This document shows, in pieces, positions 40,358-60,027 of a DNA stretch of 64,000 bases (the stretch's first letter is position 1; every line of letters starts with the position of its first letter). The stretch covers positions 1,005-65,004 of the forward strand of contig CAZXND010000002.1 of assembly GCA_964641355.1 (NCBI GenBank), read 5' to 3'. The notes under the pieces were generated by a model, which saw only the letters and a program-made list of their open reading frames with translations, ran no database searches and was not told the DNA's origin. Source of the DNA: an uncultured Gammaproteobacteria bacterium. GTDB taxonomy: Bacteria; Patescibacteriota; Microgenomatia; Levybacterales; GWA1-39-11. The translations under genes were made by a program, and so were the position numbers.

Positions 40358-40393
40358 AGTAAAGACCAGATAATAAAAATGATAACTATAAAT

Positions 40394-42525: not shown

Positions 42526-43373
42526 TGGAACATTTCGGGACGTACTATCTTCAAAATATTTTTTTCAACTTTCAGCAGTAGGAAAAGTAAAAATCCTAAA
42601 GTGCCGCTTCCATTCTTCTTATAATAATAAAGCAAGTCATTATAGTAAATATCAAGCTTTTTCCAACCAAGTTTTTTAACACTTGCAGAAACAGTATGAA
42701 TAACTTTCGCATTCCCAAGATGTAGAATTCTATACCCTTTCTTCTTTATTCTGAGACAGAGATCGTTTTCTGTATAATAAAGCAAGAATTTAGAGTCATA
42801 CCCACCAATCTCTCTTAATATTTTCGTTCTAACCATCAAAAATGCGTCACTAGTAACGTCGACATCAAAATCAAAAAGCCTATTCTGTCTTATGTATTTA
42901 TATTTATTAATCAATTTCTTATTTTTTAATCTTTTTCCCAAAATAGATAATTCGTAAAAATCAATCAGTGGAGTTGTAAATTTAGAACCAGTGCTTATTA
43001 TTTTTCCTTCTTCATAAATCTCTAATCCACCAATCGCGCCGATACTACTCTCTTTATCTAACCTATCTACCATCTTCTTTACTGAATTATCTGTAAAATA
43101 TGTATCAGAGTTTAATATTAAAAAATACCTCCCAGAAGCCTTACTCAGAACTTCGTTGTGTGCCTTAGTAAAAAAAAGATTTTTTTTGTTCTCGATTAGT
43201 TTTATTTGTTTAAAATTACTTTTAACCATCTTTACAGATCCATCGCTAGAAGCATTATCAACTACAATAATTTCAAATGCCACGTTTTTGGTGTGTTTAT
43301 AAATAGAGTCAAGACATCTTTTGAGAAGTTCACAAGTGTTGTACGAAACTATAGAAATAGTTACATCAATCAT
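42522..43373 (-). CDS. glycosyltransferase family 2
   Basis: 'SIVSYNTCELLKRCLDSI', 'IIVVDNASSDGS' and 'LNSDT' DxD-like motif. Confidence 0.8.
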   Translation of the reverse strand: MIDVTISIVSYNTCELLKRCLDSIYKHTKNVAFEIIVVDNASSDGSVKMVKSNFKQIKLIENKKNLFFTKAHNEVLSKASGRYFLILNSDTYFTDNSVKKMVDRLDKESSIGAIGGLEIYEEGKIISTGSKFTTPLIDFYELSILGKRLKNKKLINKYKYIRQNRLFDFDVDVTSDAFLMVRTKILREIGGYDSKFLLYYTENDLCLRIKKKGYRILHLGNAKVIHTVSASVKKLGWKKLDIYYNDLLYYYKKNGSGTLGFLLFLLLKVEKNILKIVRPEMFQ

Positions 43374-44020
43374 TTTGGGTAAGCTTTTATAACCATTTGA
43401 TAGGCAAAAAGATTTGGGAAAAATCTAGATAAGAATTTACTTATCCTAGGATATCCACCACCTACGCTGTCGATCATAAATACATCCATCTTGTATCCAT
43501 TTTTTTCGAAAAGATCTTTAAATGTTTCGGTAGTAAAAAAGTGAAGATGTGTATTATCCAAAATTCCATATTCCTGATACTCAAATTTTCCAAATAACAA
43601 ATTTTTTCTGATCGACCAGTGAGAGATATTGGGAGTAGTTACTATTAAAAAGCCGTCCTTTTTTAATAAACTTCTCCACTTTCTTACCGCCTCAAATGGA
43701 TCTCTTAAGTGTTCTATAAGAGCTGAGGCTAGTATTACATCAAATTTTCCCTTTACACTTTTAATAGTTTTTAAAGTCTCTACGTCCCCTTCAATAACTG
43801 AATCTAGTTTTTTTCTTGCTACTCGAGCTTCATCTTTAGACATTTCAATTCCAACTACGATACATTTTTTATTTTTTTTAAGATATTCACCCATAAATCC
43901 AGTAGCACAACCAATATCAAGAACTCTCGTATTTTCTGGTATTAAAGACGTAGAAAGCCTATCGATACTATTTGGATCAAGTATTTCAGGCTTAAATTTT
44001 ATATTTTTACCGTACTTCAT
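43370..44020 (-). CDS. class I SAM-dependent methyltransferase
   Basis: 'VLDIGCATGFMGEYL' motif I and 'FDVILASALIEH'. Confidence 0.75.
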   Translation of the reverse strand: MKYGKNIKFKPEILDPNSIDRLSTSLIPENTRVLDIGCATGFMGEYLKKNKKCIVVGIEMSKDEARVARKKLDSVIEGDVETLKTIKSVKGKFDVILASALIEHLRDPFEAVRKWRSLLKKDGFLIVTTPNISHWSIRKNLLFGKFEYQEYGILDNTHLHFFTTETFKDLFEKNGYKMDVFMIDSVGGGYPRISKFLSRFFPNLFAYQMVIKAYPK

Positions 44021-44023
44021 TGT

Positions 44024-45838
44024 CTAAGGTTTTTTAAATATTCCGATCATCTCAGGTTCATTTCTAAAAACATTTTCTTTATGAGTCTTACTGTATAATA
44101 GTTTAAAACCTGCTCGAGTGAGCAGGGAGTCCATAAATTTTCTATTTGGAATATTTACCCAATGACTTCTTCTAACATCTTTTGCTGGCATTGGAATCGC
44201 AAAAAATAATAGCCCTCCTCGTTTTAAGAGATTGTAACAATTATTCAAAGCAAGAGACAAATCATACATGTGTTCAAAAACATGGAAAGAAAGAATTATG
44301 TCATAGCTATTTTGTTTTAATTTTTGATCCATAAAGTGAATATCGAGTTCTTTAATGTTTTTTCTTTTTGAAAATTCAAGAGCATCATTTCCGATCTCAA
44401 TCCCAGAAATTAAATTTGAGTAATTTTTCTTAAAAAAGTCATAGCTGAAAAATTCACGACATCCTACGTCTAGTATTTTCGCCTTTTTAAAATCAATCTG
44501 TTTGTCATATTTTTTTGTAAAAAAATTCAAATACCTCACAACTGCAGTTTCTATAACTTCCGGAACAAGTGCAAGGGAGTCGCTTTTTTGATCAGCAATG
44601 TATTGTTTATAATCCAGTTCTAAAATTACCTCTAAAAGACTTTTGCCATTTAAATCTAAATTAAAGTATTTCTGTACCTTGTCTCGACTTCTTTTTATAA
44701 ATCTCTCCCTCCTACTGGGATTTACAATAAGCTCTCCCAACTTTTGTGAAATCTTTTTCTCATTAAGAGACCGAAGCAGCACTCCTTCATCATTGTTTAT
44801 TAAGGAGCGTACACCGGAAATATTTGAAGCAATTATTGCCGTGCCAAAAAACATTCCCTCAACGATCACATTTGGTTGACCTTCGTAGCCTTTTTTATTA
44901 GAGTTGGGATATGGCATGAATAGAACCGAAGCATGTAGGTACTTATTAAAAAGTTCTCTACCATAAAGCCCCGTTATTACTGAAACATTTTTTTCAAGTT
45001 TATTTTCAACTATTATTTCCCTTAACTCTTTCAAGTATTCACTATCAATATCAGGCCCAATAATCTCATACTTCCACTTTTCTTTAATATTTTTAGGTAG
45101 TAGTGAAAAAGCCCTAATTCCCAACTCAAAATTTTTTTCCCTGACTACTCTCCCTACTGAAATAATTAAATTTTCTTTACTTTTTTGCTTTTTTTTAAGA
45201 GATTCTTCTACTACTTTATAGTCATTAACGGGAATGCTATTTGGACAATATAGCGCATAAGATGTGATTTTTTTTAATCTGTTAGTAGTATTTCTTTTTT
45301 CCGATAAAATTAATTGAGAATTAAAAAGTAACGTATCATACAAATAAAAACCTTTGATGCTTGGTACAAAAGATAATAAGTTAATTAATAGGTGAATTTT
45401 TGAGTAGAAACTTTTGGGCGTAAGCCTTAGAAAACTTGTAGCGCCAAAGAATAATTTCCCGAAAGATGAAATACTATCATCTGAATCTAATTTCAGCAAA
45501 GTGAGTACATTGTTTTTGTCAGCTAAATCATTAACGAATTTAGAATATGGTCTACCTCTATAGAGAATGACTGCAAAATATTTATCAATGTTTTTTCTGA
45601 GATAGTCTCTAAAACCAGTGTTATCAAGCTGTGGCCAAGAAGAATTGGCTCCAATTCGCACTATTTCTATTCCAGACGTTTGAAATGACAAATCGATGTT
45701 CTTTTTAAGCCTCGCAGTAATAAATTCTACACTAATATCATTTTTTGCAAATAATTGAGCTAAAAGCCCAATGTTCTTATTGATAGATGTCTTATCTAAA
45801 TCGTCAAATATAATAGCCAATTTTCGCTGTGGTTTCAT
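44024..45838 (-). CDS. glycosyltransferase family 4 fused to a C-terminal SAM-dependent methyltransferase domain
   Basis: N-terminal and central GT4 region 'EGQPNVIVEGMFFGTAIIASNISG'. C-terminal 'ILDVGCREFF...YDIILSFHVFEHMYD...LLKRGGLLFF' is a Methyltransf_11-type domain. Confidence 0.7.
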   Translation of the reverse strand: MKPQRKLAIIFDDLDKTSINKNIGLLAQLFAKNDISVEFITARLKKNIDLSFQTSGIEIVRIGANSSWPQLDNTGFRDYLRKNIDKYFAVILYRGRPYSKFVNDLADKNNVLTLLKLDSDDSISSFGKLFFGATSFLRLTPKSFYSKIHLLINLLSFVPSIKGFYLYDTLLFNSQLILSEKRNTTNRLKKITSYALYCPNSIPVNDYKVVEESLKKKQKSKENLIISVGRVVREKNFELGIRAFSLLPKNIKEKWKYEIIGPDIDSEYLKELREIIVENKLEKNVSVITGLYGRELFNKYLHASVLFMPYPNSNKKGYEGQPNVIVEGMFFGTAIIASNISGVRSLINNDEGVLLRSLNEKKISQKLGELIVNPSRRERFIKRSRDKVQKYFNLDLNGKSLLEVILELDYKQYIADQKSDSLALVPEVIETAVVRYLNFFTKKYDKQIDFKKAKILDVGCREFFSYDFFKKNYSNLISGIEIGNDALEFSKRKNIKELDIHFMDQKLKQNSYDIILSFHVFEHMYDLSLALNNCYNLLKRGGLLFFAIPMPAKDVRRSHWVNIPNRKFMDSLLTRAGFKLLYSKTHKENVFRNEPEMIGIFKKP

Positions 45839-45846
45839 TATAAAGT

Positions 45847-47100
45847 TTAGGATTTTTTGTTAATAAAATACAATACAAATGAGAAAAAGCAAAGAAATAT
45901 CACTACTTGAGTTGCAATAGTAGCATAAACGGCCCCTAAAATTTGAAACTTTAAAATAAAAATGATGTTCAAAAGGATATTTAATAAAGCTCCCAGAACT
46001 GATATGTATAGATAAATTTTTTGCTTTCCTAATATTATTAGAACTTTATACAAAAGCGCAGACAAAGAAAGAAAAGGAACAAAAAATATTAGTATACGAA
46101 GTATTGGTATAGCCATGTCATATTTTGCTCCGAATATTAACGGAATTATTACCGGTGAAAAGATAGAAATAAAAATTGTTGTTGGAAAACTCCAAAAACC
46201 AATAGCAATACACGATTTATAAACTGCATTTCTAAATCTTCTTTTATCTTCTATGCCTATTCTCGATAAAGCAGGGTAAACAGCCATAACGAAAGGTACA
46301 TTCAAGAGTTGAATAAGAGAGAATGCAAATGGGCTAGCTGCATTAAAAATTCCTACACTTTTATCTCCCAGCATTCTTCCTAAAATTACAGAGTCAATAT
46401 TTGTATATACAAGAGAAGCAAATGCGGCCATTCCAAGAGGTAATCCCTCAAAAATAAAATACTTTGCTAATTTTTTATCAAATTCTACCTTTGGTAAATC
46501 GTATCTGGCCAAAGATATCCAAGACACGATAACACTCAAGATCGTGCCTACCAGCATTCCCCAAAAAATACCAGGCAGACCCAGTCCTAAATTAAATAAG
46601 ATAAAAGCGCAAAGAAGGAGAAGAATCGTATTAACGGAATTTAAAATTGCTGCAACTCCCATCCTCTCAGTACCTTCAAAGAAAAAAATTGGAGCAGTGC
46701 GAGCAATAGAAAAAAAGAGAGTTAATGAGGCAACAAATATCAAAAAGTCTGTATCTTTATCTGGAATCACCAATCCTCTAACAACAAATACAATTAAAAC
46801 CGTAATAAGCGCAAATAATTGGTTTATTACTAATGAATTTCCTAGATAAATGGTTGCCTTTTTTTTATTTTTTGCAATCTCACGAATTACAATAAGCCCT
46901 ATTCCAAGATCTGGTAAAAAGGCGAAAATACCAATGAACGAATTTACTAAATTATATTTTCCGTATTCCTCAACGCTTAAAGAATGTGCTAAAAAAACAA
47001 CCCAAATAACCCCGATAAACTTTAAAAAAATTTCTGAGAATGCAAGGAATATAGTATTCTTAAAAACGAGACCAAAATTATTACGTTGAAAAAAATGCAT
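45847..47100 (-). CDS. polysaccharide biosynthesis protein / oligosaccharide flippase (Wzx-like, MOP superfamily)
   Basis: 417 aa with 12 predicted TM segments. The N-terminal 'FLKFIGVIWVVFLAHSLSVEEYGKYNLVNSFIGIF' is typical of the PST family. Confidence 0.65.
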   Translation of the reverse strand: MHFFQRNNFGLVFKNTIFLAFSEIFLKFIGVIWVVFLAHSLSVEEYGKYNLVNSFIGIFAFLPDLGIGLIVIREIAKNKKKATIYLGNSLVINQLFALITVLIVFVVRGLVIPDKDTDFLIFVASLTLFFSIARTAPIFFFEGTERMGVAAILNSVNTILLLLCAFILFNLGLGLPGIFWGMLVGTILSVIVSWISLARYDLPKVEFDKKLAKYFIFEGLPLGMAAFASLVYTNIDSVILGRMLGDKSVGIFNAASPFAFSLIQLLNVPFVMAVYPALSRIGIEDKRRFRNAVYKSCIAIGFWSFPTTIFISIFSPVIIPLIFGAKYDMAIPILRILIFFVPFLSLSALLYKVLIILGKQKIYLYISVLGALLNILLNIIFILKFQILGAVYATIATQVVIFLCFFSFVLYFINKKS

Positions 47101-47105
47101 AAACT

Positions 47106-48227
47106 TCAGATCTTAAACTTATTCACCTTTTCAACTATGTATTCTTGATCTTTTTCGGATAAATCTGGAAAAATAGGAAGAAGAAGTATTTCCTTCCATA
47201 CTCTTTCAGTTACAGGTACGTCTGCCCTATAATCAGAATAAAGTTTGTAATGGTTTGTTGGTTCATAATGAACACTTGTTGCTATTCCATTATGTGCTAG
47301 ATAGTCAGAAAGTCTATCTCTTATTTTTGAAGAAACCTTAATTACATAATTATGATGGGAACTCTGAGCATAATTTTTTACAACAGGGGTTTCTATCCAT
47401 GAAGTTTTAGCAAACAACTTGTTATAAATCTCAAAAACTTTCTTCCTTTTTTCATTGTTTTTTTTAAGCTTAGCTAGTTGAACGAGTCCAATTGCGGCAG
47501 AAATATCATTCATTTGATATTTGTAGCCAGTTGTTACAACATTATACCTCCATTTAAGCTTTTTTGACTTTGATCGTGCCCAAGTACTTTGAGATATCCC
47601 AGACCATGCGAGAATACGCGAATCATCAATAGTTTTTTTATTTCTTCCAACCAACATTCCTCCATCACCTGTGGTTAAATTTTTAATGGCAGCAAAAGAA
47701 AAAGTAGCAAGATCACCAAAACTACCTACATGTTTGTTTTTATAATACGACCCTGTTGCATGGGCACAATCCTCAATAAGCGTTATTTTTTTATCACGAC
47801 ATAACTTAATAAGAGGAGAGAGATCAACAGGATGTCCTCCATAATGAACAACGATTATTACTTTTGTCTTTTTGGTTATTTTTCTTCCTATATCATTTAC
47901 ATCTGCACATAAATTATCTCTATCCACGTCGCAAAAAACAGGGGTGGCTCCCACCATCAGAATCGGATGGTTTGTTGCTACAAAAGTTAACGCGGGAGTA
48001 ATAACTTCATCACCAGGTGCAAGGTTACATGCAAGAAGTGCAAGGTGAAGAGCTGCAGTAGCAGAGTTTGTTGCAAGAACATTTTTTGCACCAATAAATT
48101 TCGTGAATTTTTTCTCAAACTCAAGCGTTTTAGGTCCCTGACCAATCCAATTTGATTTAATTACTTCACCAACAGCATTTATTTCATCCTCACCCATGCT
48201 TGGCTTAAACACTGGAATCATCATCAA
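47106..48227 (-). CDS. DegT/DnrJ/EryC1/StrS family PLP-dependent sugar aminotransferase
   Basis: 'PGDEVITPALTFVATNHPI' and the PLP-Lys region 'SFAAIKNLTTGDGG'. Confidence 0.85.
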   Translation of the reverse strand: MMMIPVFKPSMGEDEINAVGEVIKSNWIGQGPKTLEFEKKFTKFIGAKNVLATNSATAALHLALLACNLAPGDEVITPALTFVATNHPILMVGATPVFCDVDRDNLCADVNDIGRKITKKTKVIIVVHYGGHPVDLSPLIKLCRDKKITLIEDCAHATGSYYKNKHVGSFGDLATFSFAAIKNLTTGDGGMLVGRNKKTIDDSRILAWSGISQSTWARSKSKKLKWRYNVVTTGYKYQMNDISAAIGLVQLAKLKKNNEKRKKVFEIYNKLFAKTSWIETPVVKNYAQSSHHNYVIKVSSKIRDRLSDYLAHNGIATSVHYEPTNHYKLYSDYRADVPVTERVWKEILLLPIFPDLSEKDQEYIVEKVNKFKI

Positions 48228-48238
48228 GATTATATCAT

Positions 48239-49153
48239 CTAAAATCTTTTTATGAGAGCGTAAGTTGTGCCTAAAAGAACTGCAAAATCAGAGGTAATTT
48301 GAATCATGGGTAAATAGAGAATAGATAATATATTTTTTACAAACTTGAAATTTTTTATATATATCCATAACAGGTAAACAAAGACATATGTCAACAGAAG
48401 AGATCCGAAAAACAATTTCTCTTTGAAAAATAAAAAGAAGGTAATCAAGAAAATAAAATATCTAATAAATATGAGAAACACCTTAGGCCTAAAAATATTA
48501 GCATAAACATCACCTACGGCAAAATTAAAAAACATCAAAAACGATTCGACTATGTTTTTTCTCGGTACCCAACCAACAATTGCTCTTTTGGATACTGCTA
48601 TCCTAACTCCTGCTTTCTTCATCTTTCTTGCAAAATAGTAATCCTCACTATAGTTAAGTTTTTCCGGAAATCCTCCCAATAACTCAAATGTTTCTCTTCT
48701 TATTGCCATCGAACGAGAAGAAGGCAAAAATCCGTCTTTTGGATTGGAGACCAAAACATAAGGAGTAAGACAGGCTTCAAAAGTTGTCTCTGGTAACCCT
48801 TTATAAAAACCAGCTACGACCTTTATTTTCTTATCTTTTAAAGGGCTGGTGATTTCTCTTAACCAATTACGATCAAGGATACAACCAGCATCAGAAATTG
48901 CAATCACGCTACCTGTAGATTCATAAATAGCCTTATTTCTACCAATTGATCTATTTCCCTTAACCCTAAGCAATTTAAACGAAACACCTTTTGGGGACTT
49001 GAACTTTTTAAGCAATTTCCAAGTTCCATCAGTAGAATCAGCATCTGTAATTACTATTTCATTTGGAAGCTTTGATTGAGAGATAACGGATTCAAGAAAC
49101 GGGATAAGTGTATTTCTTTCATTATAAACAGTAGCTATAAAACTAACTTTCAT
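48239..49153 (-). CDS. glycosyltransferase family 2 with C-terminal TM segments
   Basis: 'VSFIATVYNERNTL', 'IVITDADSTDGT' and 'ISDAGC'. Confidence 0.75.
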   Translation of the reverse strand: MKVSFIATVYNERNTLIPFLESVISQSKLPNEIVITDADSTDGTWKLLKKFKSPKGVSFKLLRVKGNRSIGRNKAIYESTGSVIAISDAGCILDRNWLREITSPLKDKKIKVVAGFYKGLPETTFEACLTPYVLVSNPKDGFLPSSRSMAIRRETFELLGGFPEKLNYSEDYYFARKMKKAGVRIAVSKRAIVGWVPRKNIVESFLMFFNFAVGDVYANIFRPKVFLIFIRYFIFLITFFLFFKEKLFFGSLLLTYVFVYLLWIYIKNFKFVKNILSILYLPMIQITSDFAVLLGTTYALIKRF

Positions 49154-50267
49154 TCACTTCTACCTTCCACAATTTTAAATAACTTTTAACAAGTGATCCC
49201 CAAGTTTGCTTTTTTGCCCAATGATATCCCAAATCTGACTTCTCATCAAAACTATTAGGGTTATAACGTAGTAATTTATTTAAAAGTTCGCTCGGGGAAT
49301 TTGATACATCAATAAAACCATTAAAAGGTGAACTCAAGAGATAGTCTTTTCTTACAGGATCACTGTATAAAGAAAATATTCTTTTTTTACATATTAGAGC
49401 CTCTAGCATAGATAAATAAGACGAAGAAAAAACAAGATTTGAGTTATTGAGTAATTTTTTTAATCTTTCTCTTTGAGTAATAACATTACCCACAATTTTA
49501 GCTTTTTTCTTCATAGATCCGTCACCGAACAGATTGAATATAATTTTTACTCTCTTTTTACGAAGTTTTCTTATAACCTTGATGTAACTTGACAACGAAT
49601 TTATCTCTTCAAGTCTACCTATAAAAAGTATGTTTAGTGAACTCGTACTTTTCACGGTTTTTTTAACATTACTAGTTTTTAATTCTGACTCTTCAACTCC
49701 TCCATATGTCGTGAGATCTGATTTTACTCCATACCATTTTTCCAGATATCTTCCGACATTTATCGATCCGTCTGATAATAAATGAGACACTTTTCTCACA
49801 ATTTTTGACTTAAAAGATATAGGATATCCTTCATATCCATGAGAAGTTAAGTAAAACTTCTTAGAGAAGAGAATAATTCTAAGTGGCCAAACCCAAATAA
49901 ACACATCATGAACATGTATGACATCATAATTTTTTATTACGTTTATCATAACTAGCAACTTATACCATATAACAAACTTTTTGAAGAATCCGTCACTACC
50001 AAATTCAAGGTAAATTAGCTTTATGTTTTCGTTTTTTTTTCGCATAAAAAAGCTTGATTTGACGGCCTTTTTTTTTACTTTAGCTTCGCTAGCACTCAAT
50101 GAGCTTGTCTGATAAGCATCTTGGATTAATATTTCGTTTGTCCTTGAGCTTTCTGTAAGGATTGTTACTTCGTGTTGTCTTGCAAGTATTTTTGAAATTT
50201 CCAATACATGTCGTTCAACTCCACCCCTATTTAAGGTTATATTAGGTGTAATAAACAAAATCTTCAT
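49143..50267 (-). CDS. glycosyltransferase family 4 (group 1)
   Basis: 'MKILFITPNITLNRGGVERHVLEIS' GT4 N-terminal domain. Confidence 0.75.
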   Translation of the reverse strand: MKILFITPNITLNRGGVERHVLEISKILARQHEVTILTESSRTNEILIQDAYQTSSLSASEAKVKKKAVKSSFFMRKKNENIKLIYLEFGSDGFFKKFVIWYKLLVMINVIKNYDVIHVHDVFIWVWPLRIILFSKKFYLTSHGYEGYPISFKSKIVRKVSHLLSDGSINVGRYLEKWYGVKSDLTTYGGVEESELKTSNVKKTVKSTSSLNILFIGRLEEINSLSSYIKVIRKLRKKRVKIIFNLFGDGSMKKKAKIVGNVITQRERLKKLLNNSNLVFSSSYLSMLEALICKKRIFSLYSDPVRKDYLLSSPFNGFIDVSNSPSELLNKLLRYNPNSFDEKSDLGYHWAKKQTWGSLVKSYLKLWKVEVNES

Positions 50268-52703: not shown

Positions 52704-53801
52704 TCAGTCAATTGAAAGAGTATTCTTGTGAGAGAACTCAAATCCGATTGAAGAAAGAATTCCAAGAATAATAAAATTTGTTAGAAGAGAACTCCCTCCA
52801 TGCGAAACAAAAGGTAGTGTGATCCCCACAATAGGCAAAATTCCAATATTCATCCCGATATTAAATAAAACATGCGTAAGTAGAAGAAAATAAAAACCAA
52901 TTACAATTAAATATGAAAACTGATCGTCAATACTACGGGAAATCTTGTAAATCCTAGACATAATTAATAAAAAGAGAATAATTATTGAGGCTGCCCCAAG
53001 GAAACCGAAGTTTTCAGATATTGTGGCAAAAATAAAATCCGTATGACGCTCAGGTAAAAACTTAAGTATTGATTGAGTTGCAGACCCGAGCCCTTTACCC
53101 ATAAATCCTCCACTTCCAATAGAGATAAGTGACTGAATCGAGTTATAAGATGATCCAAAGGGGTCTTGGGAGGAGTTTAAAAAAGATAGAATTCGCTGCT
53201 TCTGATAATCATGAAGAAGATTAAATATAAAAGGTGCAGGAATCAAAATCGCAGTACCTAATCCTAAAAAGTAAGAAATCGGAAAACCATACATAAAAAG
53301 CATAAAAACAATAGAAGAAAGATAAATTATTGCATTACCCAAATCGGGCTGTCTTAAGGTAAGAAAAAATATAGGAAAAAGCAGTAGTAAAGCTATTATA
53401 AACTTAGAAAACGATCTCGAATCATCCTTTGATAAAAATGCAGCAAAGAAAATAATTGTAAATGGCTTCATTACTTCAGAAAATTGGATTCTAAGACCAC
53501 CTATTTCAAGCCATCTAACAGCCCCTTTAACCTCAATTCCGATCAAAAATAGCAGAATTAAAAGAATTACCATGGTGATATAAATTTGCCTAGAGTATAT
53601 TCCAAATATTCTATAGTTGATATTAAGAAATACGAGATAGGCAACAAGTGAAACTACTAAAAAGACGATTTGCTCTTGAAATAAGATAGGCGAAAGAGAA
53701 AAAAATGTTGCCATACTCAACCCCACAAGAAGTAATACTGGGATTAACAGGGAAAAGTCTATTCTATTAAATGAGAATCGATGACCAGCTCGCTCACGCA
53801 T
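52704..53801 (-). CDS. SEDS family peptidoglycan glycosyltransferase (FtsW/RodA)
   Basis: 10 TM segments. 'PERHTDFIFATISENFGFLGA' and 'LPFVSHGGSSLL' are SEDS signatures. Confidence 0.85.
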   Translation of the reverse strand: MRERAGHRFSFNRIDFSLLIPVLLLVGLSMATFFSLSPILFQEQIVFLVVSLVAYLVFLNINYRIFGIYSRQIYITMVILLILLFLIGIEVKGAVRWLEIGGLRIQFSEVMKPFTIIFFAAFLSKDDSRSFSKFIIALLLLFPIFFLTLRQPDLGNAIIYLSSIVFMLFMYGFPISYFLGLGTAILIPAPFIFNLLHDYQKQRILSFLNSSQDPFGSSYNSIQSLISIGSGGFMGKGLGSATQSILKFLPERHTDFIFATISENFGFLGAASIIILFLLIMSRIYKISRSIDDQFSYLIVIGFYFLLLTHVLFNIGMNIGILPIVGITLPFVSHGGSSLLTNFIILGILSSIGFEFSHKNTLSID

Positions 53802-56688
53802 TTTTACGAGTGACTTTAAACTCTCCCATAGATAAATTATCTATAAGAGCTCTTTTCTTCATTTCCTCTGTGAAAGATTCAGGCCAAGCAGGAAGAAATA
53901 CATCGATCCTCTCGTTTAAACCGGTTCCTAGTTTTTTCCTTTCATCTTGAATTTTTCTTATCAAATCTCGAAACTCTCCTTCGGCCTCTAGCTCTGGAGT
54001 CAAATGCGTATCCAAGTTGACCTTAAACCCTGATTCATCTGTAGCTTTTACTTCCGACTTTTCATACACTACCTCTTTAACATTTAATTCGTCAGCAATA
54101 ATCTTCTCAATCTCAGAATTTAATTTCTTAGAAGAAGTGTATGTTATCTTTTTCAACGGTTGCCTAACTTTCATACCAGCTTCTTTTCTCTTTGCGTGTG
54201 CAACTTCAACTATTTGTCTTGCAAAACTCATTTCTTCCTCAAGATTCTCATCAATCAGACTTTCATCCGCATCCGGCCAATCTGCAAGATGAACAGACTC
54301 CTCACTGGTCAAATTCCTATAAATTTCCTCAGACACAAAGGGAATGAAGGGTGCTAATGCCTTGGTATACTCAGTTAATACCTCCCACAAGGTTTGGAGC
54401 GCTTCACTTCTGCCCTTTTTATCGCTTGAATTAATTCTCTCCCTATTTCCTCGAACATACCAATTTGACAGATCGTCAATAAATATTTCAGCGTCTTTTA
54501 CAGCTTCATATGCCTTATACTGTTCAATTCCTTTTTCCGTTAAATTTTTTAAACTTTTATTCATTCTCGAAATAATCCATCTGTCGAAAGTGTTCGAGGA
54601 ATAAGAATCTCTCACTTCTTTTTTTGGACTCCATTCATATAGATTAGAGTACATTACTAAGAAGGAATACACGTTCCAGTATTTTAAGATAATCATCCTT
54701 CTTATCTCGTTTGTTACGTGAATTCCAAAATTAACGTTATGCTCAGGGTTTGTACGCAGATATAACCACCTCATAGCATCTACGCCTATTTTATCTGCTG
54801 ATTCATTAAACTCTAACGAATTACCCTTACTTTTATGCATCTCCTCTCCCTTTTCGTCTCTAACTGAACCAAAACCAAGAACTCTTTTAAAAGAGTTCGT
54901 CCTTTCAAGCACGGTGCTCATTGCTATAAGAGAGTAAAACCAATTTTTAAACTGACCAGGAAAGGATTCTGTAATAAAATCTGCAGGAAACCAATTAGAA
55001 GGCATCGTTGAGAATGGCACAATGCCAGCATCAAGCCACGGATTACCTACATCGGGAATTCTAGAAATCTTTTTTCCACATTTACTACATTTTATTTTTA
55101 TTTGGTCTATCCAGGGCCGATGAGGAGAGTTACCATCAAACTTTTCCCATCCTTCCACTGCTTTATCCTTTAACTCGTCTCTTCCTCCTATGACTTCAAA
55201 AGTTCCACAATCTTTACATTCCCATATTGGCAAAGCTAGACCCCAATATCTTTTTTTACTAATTAACCAATCGTGTAAGTTTTTTAACCAGTCCAACTCT
55301 CTATCTAACCCCCACTCAGGCATCCATTTTATTCTCTTCGCCACTTCAATCATTTGCTCTCTATAGGTAGCTCTGTTTAAATCTGGTGTATCCATCGCTA
55401 TATACCATTCATCTACAACTCTCCATACAAGTTCACTCTTACATCTCCAGCAAGTTGGATATCTATGTGCATATTTTTCTGTGGAATGAATAAACAGTCC
55501 ATTATCTTTTTCTTTAAGAAAGTTAATTATTAACTCTGGATGTTTCTTTGCACTTTTTCCCGTAAATTCATTCATCCCAGATATATAAGTAGCATCTTCT
55601 TCGATAAGACTGAGTATGGGAAGATCATTTTTTTTACCAAGCTTGAAGTCTTCTTCTCCTGCACCAGGAGCAACATGAAGAAGACCGGTACCTTCTGTTT
55701 CTGTGACCACATCTCCTCCATCAATCACACGATGAACGTAATCTCCAAATGTTTTCTTGACTGAAGGCAACGAATCAAATGGACCTTCATATTTATATCC
55801 AACTAGCGACGTCCCTAGGGTCTCCTTGCCTAATAATTGACGTGAGGATAAAATTCCCTTTTTAATTAGAGCTTGGGATCTTTTTTTCATAACCCAGACA
55901 TAATTACCTCTTGTATCCTCGTATTTACCATATGTTTCCTTTCCGTTAACAGCAACTGCGACATTAGCAGGAATAGTCCAAGGGGTAGTCGTCCAAACAA
56001 GTAAAAATTCGTTCGGCTTATTTGTAATGGGAAGTTTAAAATAAATAGTTTCATGAGTAATTTCTTTATATTCTTCAGTCAAAATTTCATGTTGAGAAAT
56101 TGCTGTTCCGCATCTCGGGCACCATGGAACTGCATCATGCCCTTTATAGAGCCATCCCTTTTCATTAACTTTCTTAATAAAATTCCAAATCGTATAGTTG
56201 TTCTTATCGGAAGAAGTATGGTAAGAGTTGTCCCAATCCATAAAATAACCTAGTCTTTTAGATTGTTCTGTTTGAATTTCTGAGAATTTTTTAACTCTTT
56301 CTTTACATAGATCTATGAACTTTTCTAGACTTTTAAACTTATCTCCTGACACTAAAGTCTCTATATCCTTTTTACTCCTAAGCCCCAACTCTTTTTCAAC
56401 TTCAACCTCAACCCATAATCCCTGCTCATCAAAGCCGTTTTGAAAACGCTGTTTTTTTCCCTTCATATTCCAAAATCTTTGCCAAAAGTCCTTATACGTT
56501 CTTCCCCAAGCATGGTGTACCCCCATGGGATTATTAGCTGTAATCGGGCCATCAAGAAAGGAGAAAGTCTCTTCGGAAGAGTCATTTTTATGAAGGTATT
56601 TATCAACAATTCCACCCTCATACCAATCTCTCAAGAGCTCGTTCTCAAGCCTAATGAAGTTTATTTGAGAGGATACAGGTTTAAACAT
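53794..56688 (-). CDS. ileS: isoleucine--tRNA ligase
   Basis: HIGH-type 'PMGVHHAWGRT', KMSKS 'MHKSKGN' and a zinc-binding 'CPRCGT'. 964 aa. Confidence 0.95.
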   Translation of the reverse strand: MFKPVSSQINFIRLENELLRDWYEGGIVDKYLHKNDSSEETFSFLDGPITANNPMGVHHAWGRTYKDFWQRFWNMKGKKQRFQNGFDEQGLWVEVEVEKELGLRSKKDIETLVSGDKFKSLEKFIDLCKERVKKFSEIQTEQSKRLGYFMDWDNSYHTSSDKNNYTIWNFIKKVNEKGWLYKGHDAVPWCPRCGTAISQHEILTEEYKEITHETIYFKLPITNKPNEFLLVWTTTPWTIPANVAVAVNGKETYGKYEDTRGNYVWVMKKRSQALIKKGILSSRQLLGKETLGTSLVGYKYEGPFDSLPSVKKTFGDYVHRVIDGGDVVTETEGTGLLHVAPGAGEEDFKLGKKNDLPILSLIEEDATYISGMNEFTGKSAKKHPELIINFLKEKDNGLFIHSTEKYAHRYPTCWRCKSELVWRVVDEWYIAMDTPDLNRATYREQMIEVAKRIKWMPEWGLDRELDWLKNLHDWLISKKRYWGLALPIWECKDCGTFEVIGGRDELKDKAVEGWEKFDGNSPHRPWIDQIKIKCSKCGKKISRIPDVGNPWLDAGIVPFSTMPSNWFPADFITESFPGQFKNWFYSLIAMSTVLERTNSFKRVLGFGSVRDEKGEEMHKSKGNSLEFNESADKIGVDAMRWLYLRTNPEHNVNFGIHVTNEIRRMIILKYWNVYSFLVMYSNLYEWSPKKEVRDSYSSNTFDRWIISRMNKSLKNLTEKGIEQYKAYEAVKDAEIFIDDLSNWYVRGNRERINSSDKKGRSEALQTLWEVLTEYTKALAPFIPFVSEEIYRNLTSEESVHLADWPDADESLIDENLEEEMSFARQIVEVAHAKRKEAGMKVRQPLKKITYTSSKKLNSEIEKIIADELNVKEVVYEKSEVKATDESGFKVNLDTHLTPELEAEGEFRDLIRKIQDERKKLGTGLNERIDVFLPAWPESFTEEMKKRALIDNLSMGEFKVTRKNA

Positions 56689-56771: not shown

Positions 56772-56936
56772 TTATCTTCTATTTTTCCTCGCTACTTGTT
56801 TTAAATTTGCACTGTAACTAATTAAACCAGTTCCATTAGAACTGCTTCCTTCACTGGAAGAACTACACAAGGCATACTTAGTATTATAGCTCTTCTCGTC
56901 AGAAATTTTGCTAACTGTTATTTTAACTCTTTTCAT
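56772..56936 (-). CDS. small ORF (54 aa), candidate RiPP precursor peptide: MKRVKITVSKISDEKSYNTKYALCSSSSEGSSSNGTGLISYSANLKQVARKNRR
   Basis: Hand-translated; below the ORF-track length cut-off. Strong SD AGGAGGTG (plus 56941-56948) 4 nt before the ATG. A Cys/Ser/Gly/Thr-rich core follows a Lys-rich N-terminal segment. Lies immediately downstream of, and co-directional with, the YcaO and SagB-type genes. Confidence 0.4.
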   Translation of the reverse strand: MKRVKITVSKISDEKSYNTKYALCSSSSEGSSSNGTGLISYSANLKQVARKNRR

Positions 56937-56957
56937 ATTTCACCTCCTTTCAATGCA

Positions 56958-56986
56958 AGGTTACCAAACAAATAAATGTTTGTCAA
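56958..56986 (-). promoter_or_regulatory. putative promoter for the small ORF (TTGACA-N17-TAACCT on the minus strand)
   Basis: Minus-strand TTGACA (plus 56981-56986), a 17-nt spacer, then a weak -10 TAACCT (plus 56958-63). Overlaps a CAAACA/TGTTTG inverted repeat. Confidence 0.25.
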
Positions 56987-57000
56987 ACAATACAAAATTA

Positions 57001-58533
57001 TTAAGGAAACGGGTGAGGCAATGGAGGGAAAGAAGTCCAAGGATTTATTTTCAGTTTCAAATCTTGAGGCACTTTTTTTATTCTATCAAATCCCAATGGT
57101 TCTAAACCATACCCAAAAGAAATCGGGACAAAACCTAATATATAAGACCTTAAAACAACAACTCCTAGCTCACTGAGATCTTTAGGTGACATATCAACTA
57201 CAATTATTTTATTATTTTTACTTATTAGAATTTCAACTAAATCTTTTAAGCTTTTTTTATTGTCTGTATTCTTCTTTTTCAGAATTTGAGTGGTCCCCTG
57301 CCACAAAAACTCGGCTTCTTTTGCAAATTTAATGTTTCTAAATAGAGATGAGTGATGTTTAACTTTCTTTACTGCCTGGGGGTTATTCACCTTAGGGGGT
57401 TTAGAGTCATCTCTATACTCCCAATAGACCGCTTGCTCAATTTCTGATAAAGCTTTATCTATTGATCGTTGAATATTCAAGTTGGCTGCAGCTCCTAATA
57501 AAATTACCGGATTATTTTTATTTTCAGCAATTGCCATAATAATTGGTATTGTGTCTAAGGTGATATCTATAAGATGAACTTTTAAACCAAGAGACTCAAT
57601 CCTGTGAACTCTAAGCTGAAAGGATCTAGAAAGAGATTTTAGATCAATCTTAGGCAAAGAAAGTCTATTGAGCCAAACAATCATAAAAGCATCTCTTTCA
57701 ATGACTTCATATAAGCCTCTCATTAATGCATCATTGTATGAAAAACCAGAAGCCACACCATTTGAATTTGCAACCGTCAATGGGTTAGGCGCATATTTTT
57801 TCTCTATTGGATAATAAATTAAGTCGATTGGAACAAAAGTGGTTTTCTCTCCAGGGAAAATCGTTGCTTTATTCCAAAAATATTTTCTCCTTTCTGAGAA
57901 CGGTCTAATTATTAAGTTTTTTCTGTATTGCTTTTTTAGATAAAAAACTAACTGCGTGGAATCAAACAATAAGTTATTAATATCTATTAACTTGCTCTCG
58001 AATATTTTCTCCTTGGGAAGAACACCACTGTAAAACCTTTCTACTCCTTCCATTATTGCTTTTAACTCTGCAATGACCGGATCCTTATCTATTCCAGAAG
58101 TCCATTCAACTCTTCTTCTAGAACCCCGCCTAGAAACAAACTTAGCACTAAATAAAGTAGTATTAATAGGTTTATATTTTGACTTTTTAGGATCGAGTTT
58201 ATAAATTTTTTTTATAAACCCACTTCTTCCTACCACTCTATTTCTCAAGCTACAAAGTGTCTCTTCCATTGTATTTGACTTCAAAACGCTTTGCGAGTTA
58301 GAAAAATTAACAATTTTTCTCTTATGTAGTAAATTAAGCACATTGATATTTTCTTCGTTTTCTTTTGCACTGTATGCTTTTTTACCTTCTAGTATTAGAT
58401 ATAACTCCTCCATCTGTTTTTTTTTGTTTTTTGGAAATTTCAAGTGAACATTTTTATCGTATGTAATAAATTCTAAACCGTTAATTATTGGTCTTAAATT
58501 CCATTTTGAATTTATTTTTACCCACTTTTTCAT
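57001..58533 (-). CDS. YcaO domain protein (ATP-dependent cyclodehydratase-type) with ~110-aa N-terminal extension
   Basis: YcaO hallmarks: 'AIMEGVERF', 'SNGVASGFSYNDALMRGLYEVIERDAF' and the Pro-rich C-terminal tail 'PPLPHPFP' (PxPxP). Its start overlaps the stop of the upstream SagB-type gene (TAATG). Confidence 0.85.
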   Translation of the reverse strand: MKKWVKINSKWNLRPIINGLEFITYDKNVHLKFPKNKKKQMEELYLILEGKKAYSAKENEENINVLNLLHKRKIVNFSNSQSVLKSNTMEETLCSLRNRVVGRSGFIKKIYKLDPKKSKYKPINTTLFSAKFVSRRGSRRRVEWTSGIDKDPVIAELKAIMEGVERFYSGVLPKEKIFESKLIDINNLLFDSTQLVFYLKKQYRKNLIIRPFSERRKYFWNKATIFPGEKTTFVPIDLIYYPIEKKYAPNPLTVANSNGVASGFSYNDALMRGLYEVIERDAFMIVWLNRLSLPKIDLKSLSRSFQLRVHRIESLGLKVHLIDITLDTIPIIMAIAENKNNPVILLGAAANLNIQRSIDKALSEIEQAVYWEYRDDSKPPKVNNPQAVKKVKHHSSLFRNIKFAKEAEFLWQGTTQILKKKNTDNKKSLKDLVEILISKNNKIIVVDMSPKDLSELGVVVLRSYILGFVPISFGYGLEPLGFDRIKKVPQDLKLKINPWTSFPPLPHPFP

Positions 58534-59519
58534 TAAACTCTTCCCCCAATAAATAAAGTTGTTAAAACAGCCTCCAAAGGAAACTTTAACTTCACAAGTC
58601 TTGAAAATTCCTCATCCTTAAACCCAGATATCTCAACGATGCCTAAATTATTCTCAGCACACCAAAGATATGCATTCTGTGCTGCATGCCCAGCCTCTAA
58701 AAGAGCGTACCGATAACCCCTATTAGAATATTTCCTCGTAGTCTTAGCAAAATCAGCAGCTATCGCAATACATAATGACGAATGTTGTAAAAACGGTTGC
58801 TTACCAAAGAATGAAGAATTCATTTCTGGAACAGAAATTTTTTTTAAAAATTTTATTTTTCCATTATGAAAACCGTACACTCCCTTTTTAAGAGACCCAA
58901 GTTTTTTCAAACAAATAACACGTATTTTTAAGGGATACAAAGCACCTCCAGAAGGAATAGTCCCAAACCCAACTCTATTTTCTAAAGAGGCTCTTTTAAT
59001 CTTTCCGTACACTGCCCATATCACTCTATTAAATTCATCCTCACTAACTGCAGTTTTGCTGAAATTTCGCATCGAACTTCTAGCTTCCATTAGCTTCTCG
59101 AGGTAAGTTCTTGATGTAAATTTGGGAGAAAATAATCGACTATTTTCTTTAAATATACTTGCTAATTGTCCACTATCTAAGGACTTGAAATAAGCCATTG
59201 GATTAGAACTTATAAAATGATAAAGCAGATAATAACTATGGACATCTACCAGTACAGAAACGTCGAGCAACTCACTAATTACAGATACGATCTCTTTCTC
59301 CTTATACTTTTTTTTCGAAATGATATTTTCAACAATTTCTTTCCCAGTTCTAAAACCGTTGCAAAGCTTGCAAATTTCATTTACCAACGCCAAATCCGCA
59401 CCATTAAGAGTGATTAGTGTATTTGGCAAAAGAAAGCTTATTGAATCATCTTCGGTATATGAATAACCAGAAACGAATGGGTAGACGGAATTAATTTCTT
59501 TTCTTTCTTTTTTGATCAT
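58533..59519 (-). CDS. SagB-type (nitroreductase-fold) dehydrogenase with N-terminal PqqD-like RRE-like segment
   Basis: Nitroreductase/SagB motifs 'EARSSMRNF' (RRSxRxF-like), 'TIPSGGALYPL' and 'YRYALLEAGHAAQNAYLWCAENNLG'. N-terminal 'ITLNGADLALVNEICKLCNGFRTGKEIVENI' resembles PqqD/RRE. Confidence 0.8.
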   Translation of the reverse strand: MIKKERKEINSVYPFVSGYSYTEDDSISFLLPNTLITLNGADLALVNEICKLCNGFRTGKEIVENIISKKKYKEKEIVSVISELLDVSVLVDVHSYYLLYHFISSNPMAYFKSLDSGQLASIFKENSRLFSPKFTSRTYLEKLMEARSSMRNFSKTAVSEDEFNRVIWAVYGKIKRASLENRVGFGTIPSGGALYPLKIRVICLKKLGSLKKGVYGFHNGKIKFLKKISVPEMNSSFFGKQPFLQHSSLCIAIAADFAKTTRKYSNRGYRYALLEAGHAAQNAYLWCAENNLGIVEISGFKDEEFSRLVKLKFPLEAVLTTLFIGGRV

Positions 59520-59721
59520 ATGGAGACATGCACGGAGACATTATAATCCAACTTATACTCAGCTTCAATGTTTTTTATTCTAGAATTAAGAAAAATTGGG
59601 AATTACTTGAGGATCAACTTTTTTAAACATAAATCACGATTTAATCAATTAGGTTCAATTTTAGCCTAAAAAGAGGATTTGTTCAACCTTAAAGTTCTAA
59701 ACCTTATTACTTAGCTAAGAA

Positions 59722-60027
59722 TTAAGACTTTTTATTTAAAACATGAACTTGATCGGGGTAAAGAATTGTGGCTTCTGAAAAATCAAAACCATCCCAAGCA
59801 AGTCTTCGAATGCGATCAAAAGCATAAACTACAGGTAAATGTGGCATTGGACAATCTTCTGTTTTTATTAAAATAGACACTTCAGGGTGCACTTTTACAT
59901 CGAATGAACTATTAACTCCCATAAGGTTTTGTCTTACAGCTCGTTTGTATTCAGCAAAATTTATACCCACAATAACTTTATCAGCTTTACTAATTGGCAA
60001 ACTCGCTACTATAGCCTCTTTTTTCAT
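59722..60027 (-). CDS. hypothetical protein (101 aa)
   Basis: ORF between ftsZ and the SagB-type gene. No recognised motif and no SD. Confidence 0.35.
   Translation of the reverse strand: MKKEAIVASLPISKADKVIVGINFAEYKRAVRQNLMGVNSSFDVKVHPEVSILIKTEDCPMPHLPVVYAFDRIRRLAWDGFDFSEATILYPDQVHVLNKKS

What the first reader, a model, noticed from the sequence alone, without database searches (positions are those of the whole stretch)
56772..59519. Compact TOMM/LAP-like RiPP cassette: SagB-type dehydrogenase, YcaO, then a small Cys/Ser-rich ORF
Seen in sequence: three co-directional minus-strand genes. The 328-aa protein carries the nitroreductase-fold SagB signatures (RSSMRNF, PSGGALYP, LLEAGHAAQN). The 510-aa protein carries YcaO signatures (two E-x-x-ER motifs and a C-terminal PPLPHPFP tail). 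The two are translationally coupled by a TAATG overlap. A 54-aa ORF with a perfect AGGAGGTG ribosome-binding site follows. Established knowledge: YcaO plus a flavin-dependent SagB/McbC-type dehydrogenase is the core machinery that converts Cys/Ser/Thr to azolines and then azoles in thiazole/oxazole-modified peptides such as streptolysin S, microcin B17 and plantazolicin. Inference: this is an azole-installing RiPP system in what looks like a tiny, reduced genome. It lacks the usual E1-like/ocin-ThiF partner, so it would be an uncharacterised minimal variant.
Basis: partly seen in the sequence, partly recalled or inferred. Interest (0 to 1): 0.9.

Follow-up and report, generated by a model that had tools for sequence, protein, structure and literature searches.

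The report
Two-enzyme azole-peptide cassette, CPR-type
This is a real but so far only computationally known gene cassette, typical of tiny "candidate phyla radiation" bacteria. It most likely turns a small ribosomal peptide into an oxazole/thiazole-containing product using just two enzymes, each carrying its own peptide-docking domain instead of the usual third partner protein.

Summary
Three co-directional minus-strand genes encode a SagB-type dehydrogenase (58533-59519), a TOMM/SagD-type YcaO (57001-58533) joined to it by a TAATG overlap, and a 54-aa ORF (56772-56936) behind AGGAGGTG.

Both enzymes pass NCBIfam's curated cut-offs: TIGR03605 scores 88.4 against 78.4, and TIGR03604 scores 221.7 against 219.25. 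The RimO-type and thioamide-type YcaO models fail.

The small ORF is a genuine precursor gene. In 19 of about 20 related loci, all named ones from Patescibacteria/CPR, a peptide follows the YcaO gene. These peptides share the leader motif [IV]K[IV]T-x-[RKS][RK][LI]-x-[DN]E, a Cys/Gly/Ser-rich core and a strong GGAGG.

YcaO plus nitroreductase LAP clusters in CPR genomes were already reported (Sharrar et al. 2020, 110 clusters). This locus is therefore a new member of a known but biochemically uncharacterised kind. Its core is Ser-rich with a single Cys, and it lacks the DUF2268 protease found in 8 of 20 relatives. Interest is moderate.

The parts
59540..59568 (-). Promoter-like site TTGAAG-17-TATAAT, about 20 nt upstream of the SagB start codon. 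It is a candidate operon promoter.
   Evidence: 10 of 12 matches. The number of such sites in the region is not above the shuffled expectation, so this is weak evidence.
58533..59519 (-). RRE-SagB: an FMN-dependent azoline dehydrogenase of 328 aa. Its stop codon overlaps the YcaO start codon.
   Evidence: TIGR03605 88.4 bits (cut-off 78.4) and PF00881 62 bits. K263-Y264 is invariant in 34 homologues and aligns with the catalytic K201-Y202 of McbC (PMC6395948).
59244..59486 (-). [quoted passage not shown]
58536..59102 (-). Nitroreductase-fold catalytic domain of SagB (residues ~140-328).
   Evidence: profile hits to 3eo7, McbC, BmdC and ThcOx.
57001..58533 (-). YcaO cyclodehydratase of 510 aa, SagD/TOMM type.
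   Evidence: TIGR03604 221.7 bits (cut-off 219.25) and PF02624 182 bits. Both ExxER motifs are invariant in the family and the C-terminal PLPHPFP is conserved. The closest solved relatives are MusD, MJ1094, TruD and LynD.
58294..58533 (-). N-terminal RRE-like domain of YcaO (residues 1-~80; four strands, two helices, one strand).
56941..56948 (-). Shine-Dalgarno sequence AGGAGGTG of the precursor gene.
   Evidence: An AAGGAGG-type site precedes the precursor ORF in the related loci examined.
56772..56936 (-). Precursor peptide gene (54 aa): MKRVKITVSKISDEKSYNTKYA | LCSSSSEGSSSNGTGLISYSANLKQVARKNRR. The leader/core boundary is inferred.
   Evidence: It is homologous to peptides directly downstream of YcaO in 19 of ~20 related loci. 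Profile search finds 21 clusters in 5.8 billion proteins, none annotated. Against the L005 orthologue, pN is 0.175 and pS is 0.495 over the first 27 codons.

Best explanation
This is a three-gene linear azol(in)e peptide (LAP/TOMM-type RiPP) operon of a family restricted, as far as seen, to Patescibacteria/CPR bacteria.

Proposed sequence of events:
- The 54-aa precursor is translated from a strong ribosome-binding site.
- Its N-terminal leader (VKITVSKISDE, family motif [IV]K[IV]T-x-[RKS][RK][LI]-x-[DN]E) is inferred to bind as an added beta-strand to the RRE fused to the N-terminus of the SagB dehydrogenase. The smaller RRE-like domain on YcaO may also contribute, or may dock the two enzymes together.
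- The YcaO domain then uses ATP to cyclodehydrate the Cys24/Ser-rich core (CSSSSEGSSS...) to thiazoline and oxazolines.
- The FMN-dependent SagB domain oxidises these to thiazole and oxazoles through its Lys263-Tyr264 pair.

The fused RRE(s) replace the separate E1-like (C) or Ocin-ThiF (F) partner of canonical systems. Leader removal must be done by a protease encoded elsewhere, because the DUF2268 metalloprotease found in relatives is absent here.

What is shown: the enzyme family assignments, intact catalytic motifs, the RRE fold of the SagB N-terminus, the conserved precursor family, and the absence of a C/F partner gene.

What is inferred: which RRE binds the leader, that the two enzymes form a complex, which residues are modified, and the biological activity (probably antibacterial, by analogy only).
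For: Enzyme families:
- TIGR03605 and TIGR03604 are both above their curated cut-offs; PF00881 and PF02624 also hit.
- ExxER x2 and the C-terminal PLPHP(FP) are conserved. The PxPxP motif is described as canonical for azoline-forming YcaOs (PMC12338566).
- K263-Y264 is invariant and aligns to McbC K201-Y202 (mechanism in PMC6395948).

Precursor:
- The gene order SagB, YcaO, peptide is conserved in ~20 loci.
- The peptides share a leader motif, a Cys/Gly/Ser core and a GGAGG site.
- In the leader, pN is lower than pS.

Docking domains and partner absence:
- SagB N-terminus is an RRE. YcaO N-terminus is RRE-like.
- Both N-terminal domains are retained in every aligned full-length family member, at 32-37% mean identity against 46-51% for the catalytic domains.
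- No ThiF or E1-like domain was found in any of the ≥120-aa window ORFs scanned, which is nearly all of them. None is a conserved neighbour in 20 loci.
- The sister clade encodes a single RRE-SagB-YcaO polypeptide of ~750 aa that lacks the YcaO N-terminal domain. This Rosetta-stone fusion argues that the two enzymes work as one unit.

Literature: LAP clusters with YcaO next to a nitroreductase, a peptidase and a precursor next to YcaO are reported in CPR genomes (PMC7298704).
Against: - No biochemical data exist for any family member.
- TIGR03604 passes its cut-off by only 2.5 bits, and relatives fall below it.
- RREs fused to azoline dehydrogenases have been suspected to be vestigial (PMC7470986).
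- The window's core has only one Cys, whereas most relatives have 4-9.
- No protease, transporter or immunity gene is adjacent. The window shows only 64 kb of the genome, so a trans-encoded partner cannot be excluded.
- One close relative (L089) has no precursor on its 4.7-kb contig.
Confidence: 0.8

Rival explanations
1. The cassette is a decaying or inactive remnant in this genome. It has lost the DUF2268 leader protease and most core cysteines, so no mature product is made.
For: There is no DUF2268 homologue anywhere in the window, although 8 of 20 relatives have one directly after the precursor. The core has 1 Cys against 4-9 in relatives. The nearest relative has a transposase fragment inside the cassette.
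Against: All three ORFs are intact. All catalytic residues are retained. Translational coupling and a strong SD are retained. The Ser-rich core type is shared with the 54%-identical L005 system, with pN below pS, which indicates a maintained subfamily. Twelve of 20 relatives also lack the protease.
Confidence: 0.1
2. The SagB-YcaO pair modifies a housekeeping protein (for example a ribosomal or cell-division protein, given the neighbours ftsZ, ileS, rplU and rpmA). On this view the 54-aa ORF is not its substrate.
For: The cassette is embedded between the dcw cluster and ileS. Some YcaOs do modify proteins, for example ribosomal protein S12 and McrA (model names).
Against: The scores to those YcaO models are far below their cut-offs. 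The flanking genes differ between loci, while the small peptide stays with the enzymes. The peptide has a leader plus heterocyclisable-core layout and sits next to RRE-bearing enzymes.
Confidence: 0.04
3. The YcaO installs a different backbone modification (thioamide, amidine, or azoline only), and the SagB-like protein has another or no redox role.
For: The YcaO superfamily catalyses all of these reactions. There are secondary hits to TIGR03266 (thioamidation) at 88 bits. Standalone YcaOs in bottromycin biosynthesis work without partners (PMC7136475, PMC4603692).
Against: No TfuA was found in any of the ≥120-aa window ORFs scanned. The best and only above-cut-off model is SagD/TOMM. The proline-rich C-terminus is typical of azoline formers (PMC12338566). 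The dehydrogenase is strictly co-inherited, fused in the sister clade, and keeps its Lys-Tyr catalytic pair.
Confidence: 0.06

Closest known systems
CPR/Patescibacteria LAP clusters reported by genome mining (Sharrar et al. 2020, mBio, PMC7298704)
   Same: The host group is a CPR bacterium. YcaO is adjacent to a nitroreductase-family dehydrogenase, with a precursor gene next to YcaO. A peptidase is present in many relatives. That paper counted 110 such clusters in 93 CPR genomes, 89 of them with the nitroreductase next to YcaO.
   Different: That report was annotation-level only, with no domain analysis, no precursor family definition and no product. The window's cassette lacks the peptidase and has a Ser-rich, single-Cys core. 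I could not compare sequences, because the published precursor is only in a figure.
Microcin B17 synthetase McbBCD with McbA (E. coli)
   Same: A YcaO (McbD) and an FMN dehydrogenase (McbC, with the Lys-Tyr catalytic pair) act on a Gly/Ser/Cys-rich linear precursor. The leader is bound as a beta-strand by an RRE (PMC6395948).
   Different: In MccB17 the RRE sits on a separate E1-like protein (McbB), which also completes the YcaO active site. Here no McbB homologue exists, and the RRE is fused to the dehydrogenase. No McbEFG-type export or immunity genes are present. Sequence identity is low (McbC profile E 7e-18).
Cyanobactin azoline oxidase ThcOx/ArtGox and other RRE-dehydrogenase fusions
   Same: RRE domain(s) are fused N-terminally to a SagB-type FMN dehydrogenase. 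ThcOx appears among the structural and sequence hits. RRE-Finder noted such fusions in cyanobactin, LAP and thiopeptide clusters (PMC7470986).
   Different: In those pathways a separate RRE-bearing cyclodehydratase (PatD/LynD type, E1-like fused) is also present, and the oxidase RREs are considered possibly vestigial. Here the dehydrogenase RRE is the only canonical RRE in the system.
Fused or truncated cyclodehydratases: LynD/TruD/MusD (RRE-E1-YcaO) and the haloazolisin 'short CD' type
   Same: The YcaO carries an N-terminal leader-binding-type domain in the same polypeptide. MusD, TruD and LynD are the closest solved YcaO sequences. Haloazolisins also have a barely recognisable C domain and Ser-rich cores (PMC4603692).
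   Different: The ~300-residue E1-like domain 2 is entirely absent. Only ~80 residues of RRE-like fold precede the YcaO domain. Haloazolisins are archaeal and associated with an F-like protein.
Standalone YcaOs of bottromycin biosynthesis
   Same: They form azolines without an E1-like or ThiF partner protein (PMC7136475, PMC4603692).
   Different: Bottromycin precursors use a follower peptide, and the YcaOs carry no RRE. There is no adjacent SagB-type dehydrogenase partnership of this kind.

Membership tests
LAP / TOMM-type azol(in)e RiPP cluster | YcaO cyclodehydratase of the SagD/TOMM subfamily | tested here: met
   TIGR03604 221.7 bits against cut-off 219.25, a narrow pass. PF02624 182 bits.
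LAP / TOMM-type azol(in)e RiPP cluster | Intact ATP/Mg-binding ExxER motifs and a proline-rich (PxPxP) C-terminus | tested here: met
   E162/E165/R166 and E276/E279/R280 are invariant in 15 homologues. The window protein ends in PPLPHPFP; most relatives end in P-x-x-H-P-F-x. The motif's meaning is taken from PMC12338566.
LAP / TOMM-type azol(in)e RiPP cluster | SagB/McbC-type FMN dehydrogenase with a catalytic Lys-Tyr pair | tested here: met
   TIGR03605 88.4 bits against cut-off 78.4. K263-Y264 is invariant and aligns to McbC K201-Y202.
LAP / TOMM-type azol(in)e RiPP cluster | E1-like (C protein, TIGR03603) or Ocin-ThiF-like (F protein) partner, discrete or fused to YcaO | tested here: not met
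   No such NCBIfam or Pfam hit on either enzyme. No ThiF domain in any of the ≥120-aa window ORFs scanned. No conserved partner gene in 20 related loci. Only the RRE sub-domain is present, fused to SagB and, in weak form, to YcaO.
LAP / TOMM-type azol(in)e RiPP cluster | Adjacent precursor with a conserved leader and a Cys/Ser/Thr-rich core | tested here: met
LAP / TOMM-type azol(in)e RiPP cluster | The product contains azol(in)e heterocycles | not testable with these tools
   This requires expression and mass spectrometry.
[quoted passage not shown] | Three strands followed by three helices, with structural similarity to known RREs (SagB residues ~12-92) | tested here: met
[quoted passage not shown] | The same fold for YcaO residues 1-80 | tested here: inconclusive
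[quoted passage not shown] | Binds the leader peptide | not testable with these tools
A binding assay or a co-fold is needed.
TfuA-associated / McrA thioamidating YcaO | Match to the thioamidation YcaO model and an adjacent TfuA | tested here: not met
   TIGR03266 88.5 bits against cut-off 365. No TfuA in any of the ≥120-aa window ORFs scanned.
RimO-associated (S12) YcaO | Match to NF040716 | tested here: not met
   24.1 bits against cut-off 700.
CPR LAP clusters (PMC7298704) | CPR genome; YcaO next to a nitroreductase; precursor next to YcaO; peptidase | tested here: inconclusive
   The first three features are met: the named homologue loci are all Patescibacteria, and the gene order is shown. 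The peptidase is absent from the window but present in 8 of 20 relatives. The window's own taxonomy is inferred, not shown.

The most novel reading that the evidence does not exclude
This family may be a truly E1-independent, two-polypeptide azole synthetase. In that reading, leader recognition and activation of the YcaO are provided by the dehydrogenase through its N-terminal RRE, and the YcaO's own degenerate RRE-like domain acts as a docking module. It would be the smallest complete cyclodehydratase/dehydrogenase machinery known. It would also show that dehydrogenase-fused RREs, elsewhere regarded as vestigial, can be the primary substrate-recruiting element. The products, Ser-rich here and Cys/Gly-rich with basic tails in relatives, would be the first characterised natural products of CPR bacteria.
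Probability: 0.4. Interest if true: 0.6.

Novelty: new member of a known kind. Interest (0 to 1): 0.4.

Why it matters
CPR/Patescibacteria have tiny genomes with almost no secondary metabolism. A compact RiPP operon that they retain is therefore likely to matter for their episymbiotic or competitive lifestyle, and none of these products has been characterised.

Mechanistically, the family offers a natural test of whether an azoline-forming YcaO can work without the E1-like or ThiF partner that normally boosts activity by orders of magnitude. The RRE on the dehydrogenase would do the recruiting. A two-gene azole-installing system with a short 11-residue recognition motif would also be a convenient tool for peptide engineering.

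None of this is a conceptual surprise, however. The enzymology is that of known LAP systems, and the existence of such clusters in CPR genomes has been published.

Tried and rejected
- **Sequence searches of the N-terminal domains.** Pfam and NCBIfam gave nothing for the N-terminal extensions, the 54-aa peptide or the 101-aa upstream ORF. PDB sequence profiles gave only insignificant winged-helix hits (MecI, E 0.15) for the SagB N-terminus and nothing for the YcaO N-terminus. Structure prediction was needed to identify these domains.
- **The 101-aa ORF (59722-60027).** I considered it as part of the cassette and rejected it, because it is absent from all related loci.
- **DUF2268 protease.** I looked for it in the window and found none.
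- **E1-like, ThiF, TfuA, C39-peptidase transporter or pentapeptide-repeat immunity genes.** I scanned nearly all ≥120-aa window ORFs and found only housekeeping, glycan and ATP-synthase genes.
- **Precursor in L089.** None was found on that short contig.
- **Promoter and terminator scan.** It is not above background. No convincing terminator follows the precursor.
- **Rfam.** Only three tRNAs were found, nothing near the cassette.
- **Organism name.** Exact-sequence cluster look-up returned no names or accessions, so the CPR assignment rests on the taxonomy of homologue loci.
- **Literature.** I searched for a characterised CPR azole peptide or a demonstrated dehydrogenase-RRE-dependent cyclodehydratase. 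None was found in the held library.
Full report
**1. Observation**

The three minus-strand ORFs exist exactly as described:
- 58533-59519, 328 aa
- 57001-58533, 510 aa
- 56772-56936, 54 aa

The first two overlap in the sequence TTAATG. AGGAGGTG lies at 56941-56948, four bases before the ATG of the small ORF. All quoted motifs are present: RSSMRNF, PSGGALYP, LLEAGHAAQN, two ExxER motifs and the C-terminal PPLPHPFP. The only correction is that the peptide has one Cys, 12 Ser and 3 Thr. It is Ser-rich rather than Cys/Ser-rich.

**2. Enzyme identity**

- The 328-aa protein matches TIGR03605 (SagB family peptide dehydrogenase) at 88.4 bits, cut-off 78.4, and PF00881.
- The 510-aa protein matches TIGR03604 (SagD family thiazole/oxazole maturase) at 221.7 bits, cut-off 219.25, which is a narrow pass. 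It also matches PF02624 at 182 bits.
- The alternative YcaO clades fail clearly. The S12/RimO-type model NF040716 scores 24 against 700. The McrA thioamidation model TIGR03266 scores 88 against 365.

In an alignment of 15 full-length YcaO homologues, both ExxER motifs and the C-terminal P-x-x-H-P-F-x are conserved. The window protein carries a literal PxPxP, which is the motif associated with azoline-forming YcaOs (PMC12338566). The closest solved sequences are the cyclodehydratases MusD, TruD and LynD, plus MJ1094.

In 34 SagB homologues, K263-Y264 is invariant. In a profile alignment it matches K201-Y202 of McbC, the catalytic pair that abstracts the azoline alpha-proton (PMC6395948).

**3. 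The small ORF is a real precursor gene**

The YcaO has only about 15 full-length relatives among 5.8 billion clustered proteins. Scans of species-representative genomes and of metagenomes recovered about 20 non-redundant loci. The named ones are Candidatus Saccharibacteria, Yanofskybacteria, WWE3 and 'Patescibacteria group'.

All of these loci have SagB immediately upstream of YcaO. In 19 of them a small ORF homologous to the window's peptide lies directly downstream.

The leaders align without gaps: VKITVSKISDE in the window against IKVTERKLADE in relatives. The family motif is [IV]K[IV]T-x-[RKS][RK][LI]-x-[DN]E.

The cores vary:
- Most relatives are Cys/Gly/Ser-rich, for example CGNCSQCGGGSCTSC or CSCGGSGCGSCGGGACKCG.
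- The window has ALCSSSSEGSSSNGTG.
- Its 54%-identical relative L005 has ALCSSSCGGGSSGSSSNG.

An AAGGAGG-type site precedes the peptide ORF in the related loci examined. Over the first 27 codons, window against L005, pN is 0.175 and pS is 0.495.

A profile of 18 peptides finds only 21 clusters in the 5.8-billion-protein collection. None carries a Pfam domain or a name. One relative (L089) has no peptide on its short contig.

**4. The missing partner**

Neither enzyme matches an E1-like or ThiF model. Nearly all window ORFs of at least 120 aa were scanned and none carries such a domain. The surroundings are:
- murG, ftsA and ftsZ upstream
- ileS, ftsW, rplU, rpmA and parB downstream
- further away, a glycan cluster, ATP synthase, dnaE, gatAB and others

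Gene clustering across 20 loci shows no further universally conserved neighbour. The only frequent one is a DUF2268 HExxH metalloprotease directly after the precursor, in 8 of 20 loci. It is absent from the window. The 101-aa ORF between ftsZ and SagB is unique to this genome.

Both enzymes, however, have N-terminal extensions outside their catalytic-domain HMM matches.

Both N-terminal domains are retained in every aligned full-length homologue. Their mean pairwise identities are 37% and 32%, against 51% and 46% for the catalytic domains.

**5. Related architectures**

A sister clade (L013, L014, L015, L018, L020, L112, L123; also P0017-P0020) encodes one polypeptide of 733-752 aa. It consists of RRE-SagB followed directly by the YcaO domain, without the YcaO N-terminal domain. 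This natural fusion supports the idea that the dehydrogenase and cyclodehydratase act as one unit. It also suggests that the SagB-borne RRE is the element that is always kept.

A third group (L071, L082) has a 620-aa YcaO with an unassigned N-terminus. Its precursor has a related QxKVTRL leader.

**6. Mechanism proposed**

What is shown: a SagD-type YcaO and a SagB-type dehydrogenase, both with intact catalytic residues, are co-inherited and translationally coupled. A conserved, strongly translated leader-plus-core peptide is encoded alongside them. A bona fide RRE fold sits on the dehydrogenase. No C or F partner gene is present.

What is inferred:
- The alternating hydrophobic leader segment binds the SagB RRE as an extra beta-strand, as McbA does on McbB (PMC6395948).
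- The YcaO N-terminal domain helps bind the leader or docks onto SagB.
- Cys24 and neighbouring Ser residues are converted to thiazole and oxazoles.
- The leader is removed by a protease encoded elsewhere.
- The function is probably antagonistic, by analogy with MccB17 and phazolicin only.

**7. Comparison with the literature**

Sharrar et al. 2020 (PMC7298704) described a CPR (Microgenomates) LAP cluster with YcaO, nitroreductase, peptidase and a precursor next to YcaO. They counted 110 LAP clusters in 93 further CPR genomes, 89 of them with a nitroreductase next to YcaO. The kind is therefore already on record.

RRE-Finder (PMC7470986) noted RREs fused to dehydrogenases in cyanobactin, LAP and thiopeptide clusters and considered them possibly vestigial. 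ThcOx is the structural example (PMC6395948).

Canonical definitions of TOMM/LAP clusters require a C or F partner that engages the leader and potentiates the YcaO (PMC4603692, PMC7136475). That defining feature is not met here. I therefore describe the system as working like a LAP synthetase and belonging to the partner-less CPR subgroup.

I found no paper in the held library that characterises a product, defines this precursor family, or shows that a dehydrogenase-borne RRE drives cyclodehydration.

**8. Verdict**

- RRE domains are fused to both enzymes.
- The core is Ser-rich with a single Cys.
- CPR LAP clusters of this type were already reported.

The locus is a new member of a known, uncharacterised kind. 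Interest is moderate at 0.4. It is a good candidate for testing E1-independent azole formation and for obtaining the first CPR natural product, but it is not a surprise to specialists.

Noticed in passing
window 36067-50267 (minus strand): A run of about 14 surface-glycan genes has lower GC (0.30-0.32) than the rest of the window (0.35-0.37). It includes a Wzy_C ligase-like gene, three PMT_2 membrane glycosyltransferases, several GT2, GT4 and GT1 genes, a GT1-methyltransferase fusion, a Polysacc_synt flippase and a DegT aminotransferase. It may be an acquired island.
   Followed up: no
window 59722-60027 (minus strand): A 101-aa ORF lies between ftsZ and the SagB gene. It has no Pfam or NCBIfam match and no homologue in any of the 166 fetched loci, so it is not part of the conserved cassette.
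   Followed up: partly
L005:5972-6199: In the closest relative, an rve-type transposase fragment sits between the YcaO gene and the precursor gene. The precursor still keeps its GGAGG site. This hints that the precursor may have its own promoter, or that the cassette is mobile.
   Followed up: no
window 56958-56986 (minus strand): A perfect -35 hexamer TTGACA (56981-56986) lies in the 64-nt YcaO-precursor spacer, followed after 17 nt by a weak -10 TAACCT. It falls below the scan's threshold, so one search does not list it. I read it directly.
   Followed up: no
L013:1836-4088, L014:3817-6069, L015:3897-6155, L018:1288-3495, L020:4095-6302: A sister clade encodes a single fused RRE-SagB-YcaO protein of 735-752 aa. 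Some loci are labelled Gammaproteobacteria or Bdellovibrionales MAGs rather than CPR.
   Followed up: partly
L071:4197-6266 and L082:4227-6287: A third architecture has a 620-625-aa YcaO with an unassigned N-terminal region of ~265 aa. Its precursor has a QxKVTRL leader and repeated GGSNGGGKCS units.
   Followed up: no
L008:6892-7752, L012:6714-7601, L101:3220-4089, L104:6604-7476, L090:4275-5141: A DUF2268 metalloprotease (HEYNH motif) directly follows the precursor in 8 of 20 family loci and is a likely leader peptidase. It is absent from the window.
   Followed up: partly
window 53794-56688 and L005:6896-9733: Isoleucyl-tRNA synthetase directly follows the cassette both in the window and in the 54%-identical relative, although the upstream genes differ. 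This is probably one-sided synteny. A resistance role was not examined.
   Followed up: no
L106:1978-2172 (minus) and L106:5266-5448 (plus): One relative carries two divergent precursor paralogues flanking the enzyme genes.
   Followed up: no
precursors in the window, L005, L010, L099, L102, L104, L008 and L090: Many precursors end in a short basic tail after the Cys/Ser-rich core (KNRR, KNKK, RKN, RKK, HHKR). Its significance is unknown.
   Followed up: no
window 2722-4206 (minus strand): An ABC-F type ATPase is encoded here (two ABC_tran domains plus ABC_tran_Xtn). Members of this class can protect ribosomes from antibiotics. It lies ~50 kb from the cassette and no link is shown.
   Followed up: no
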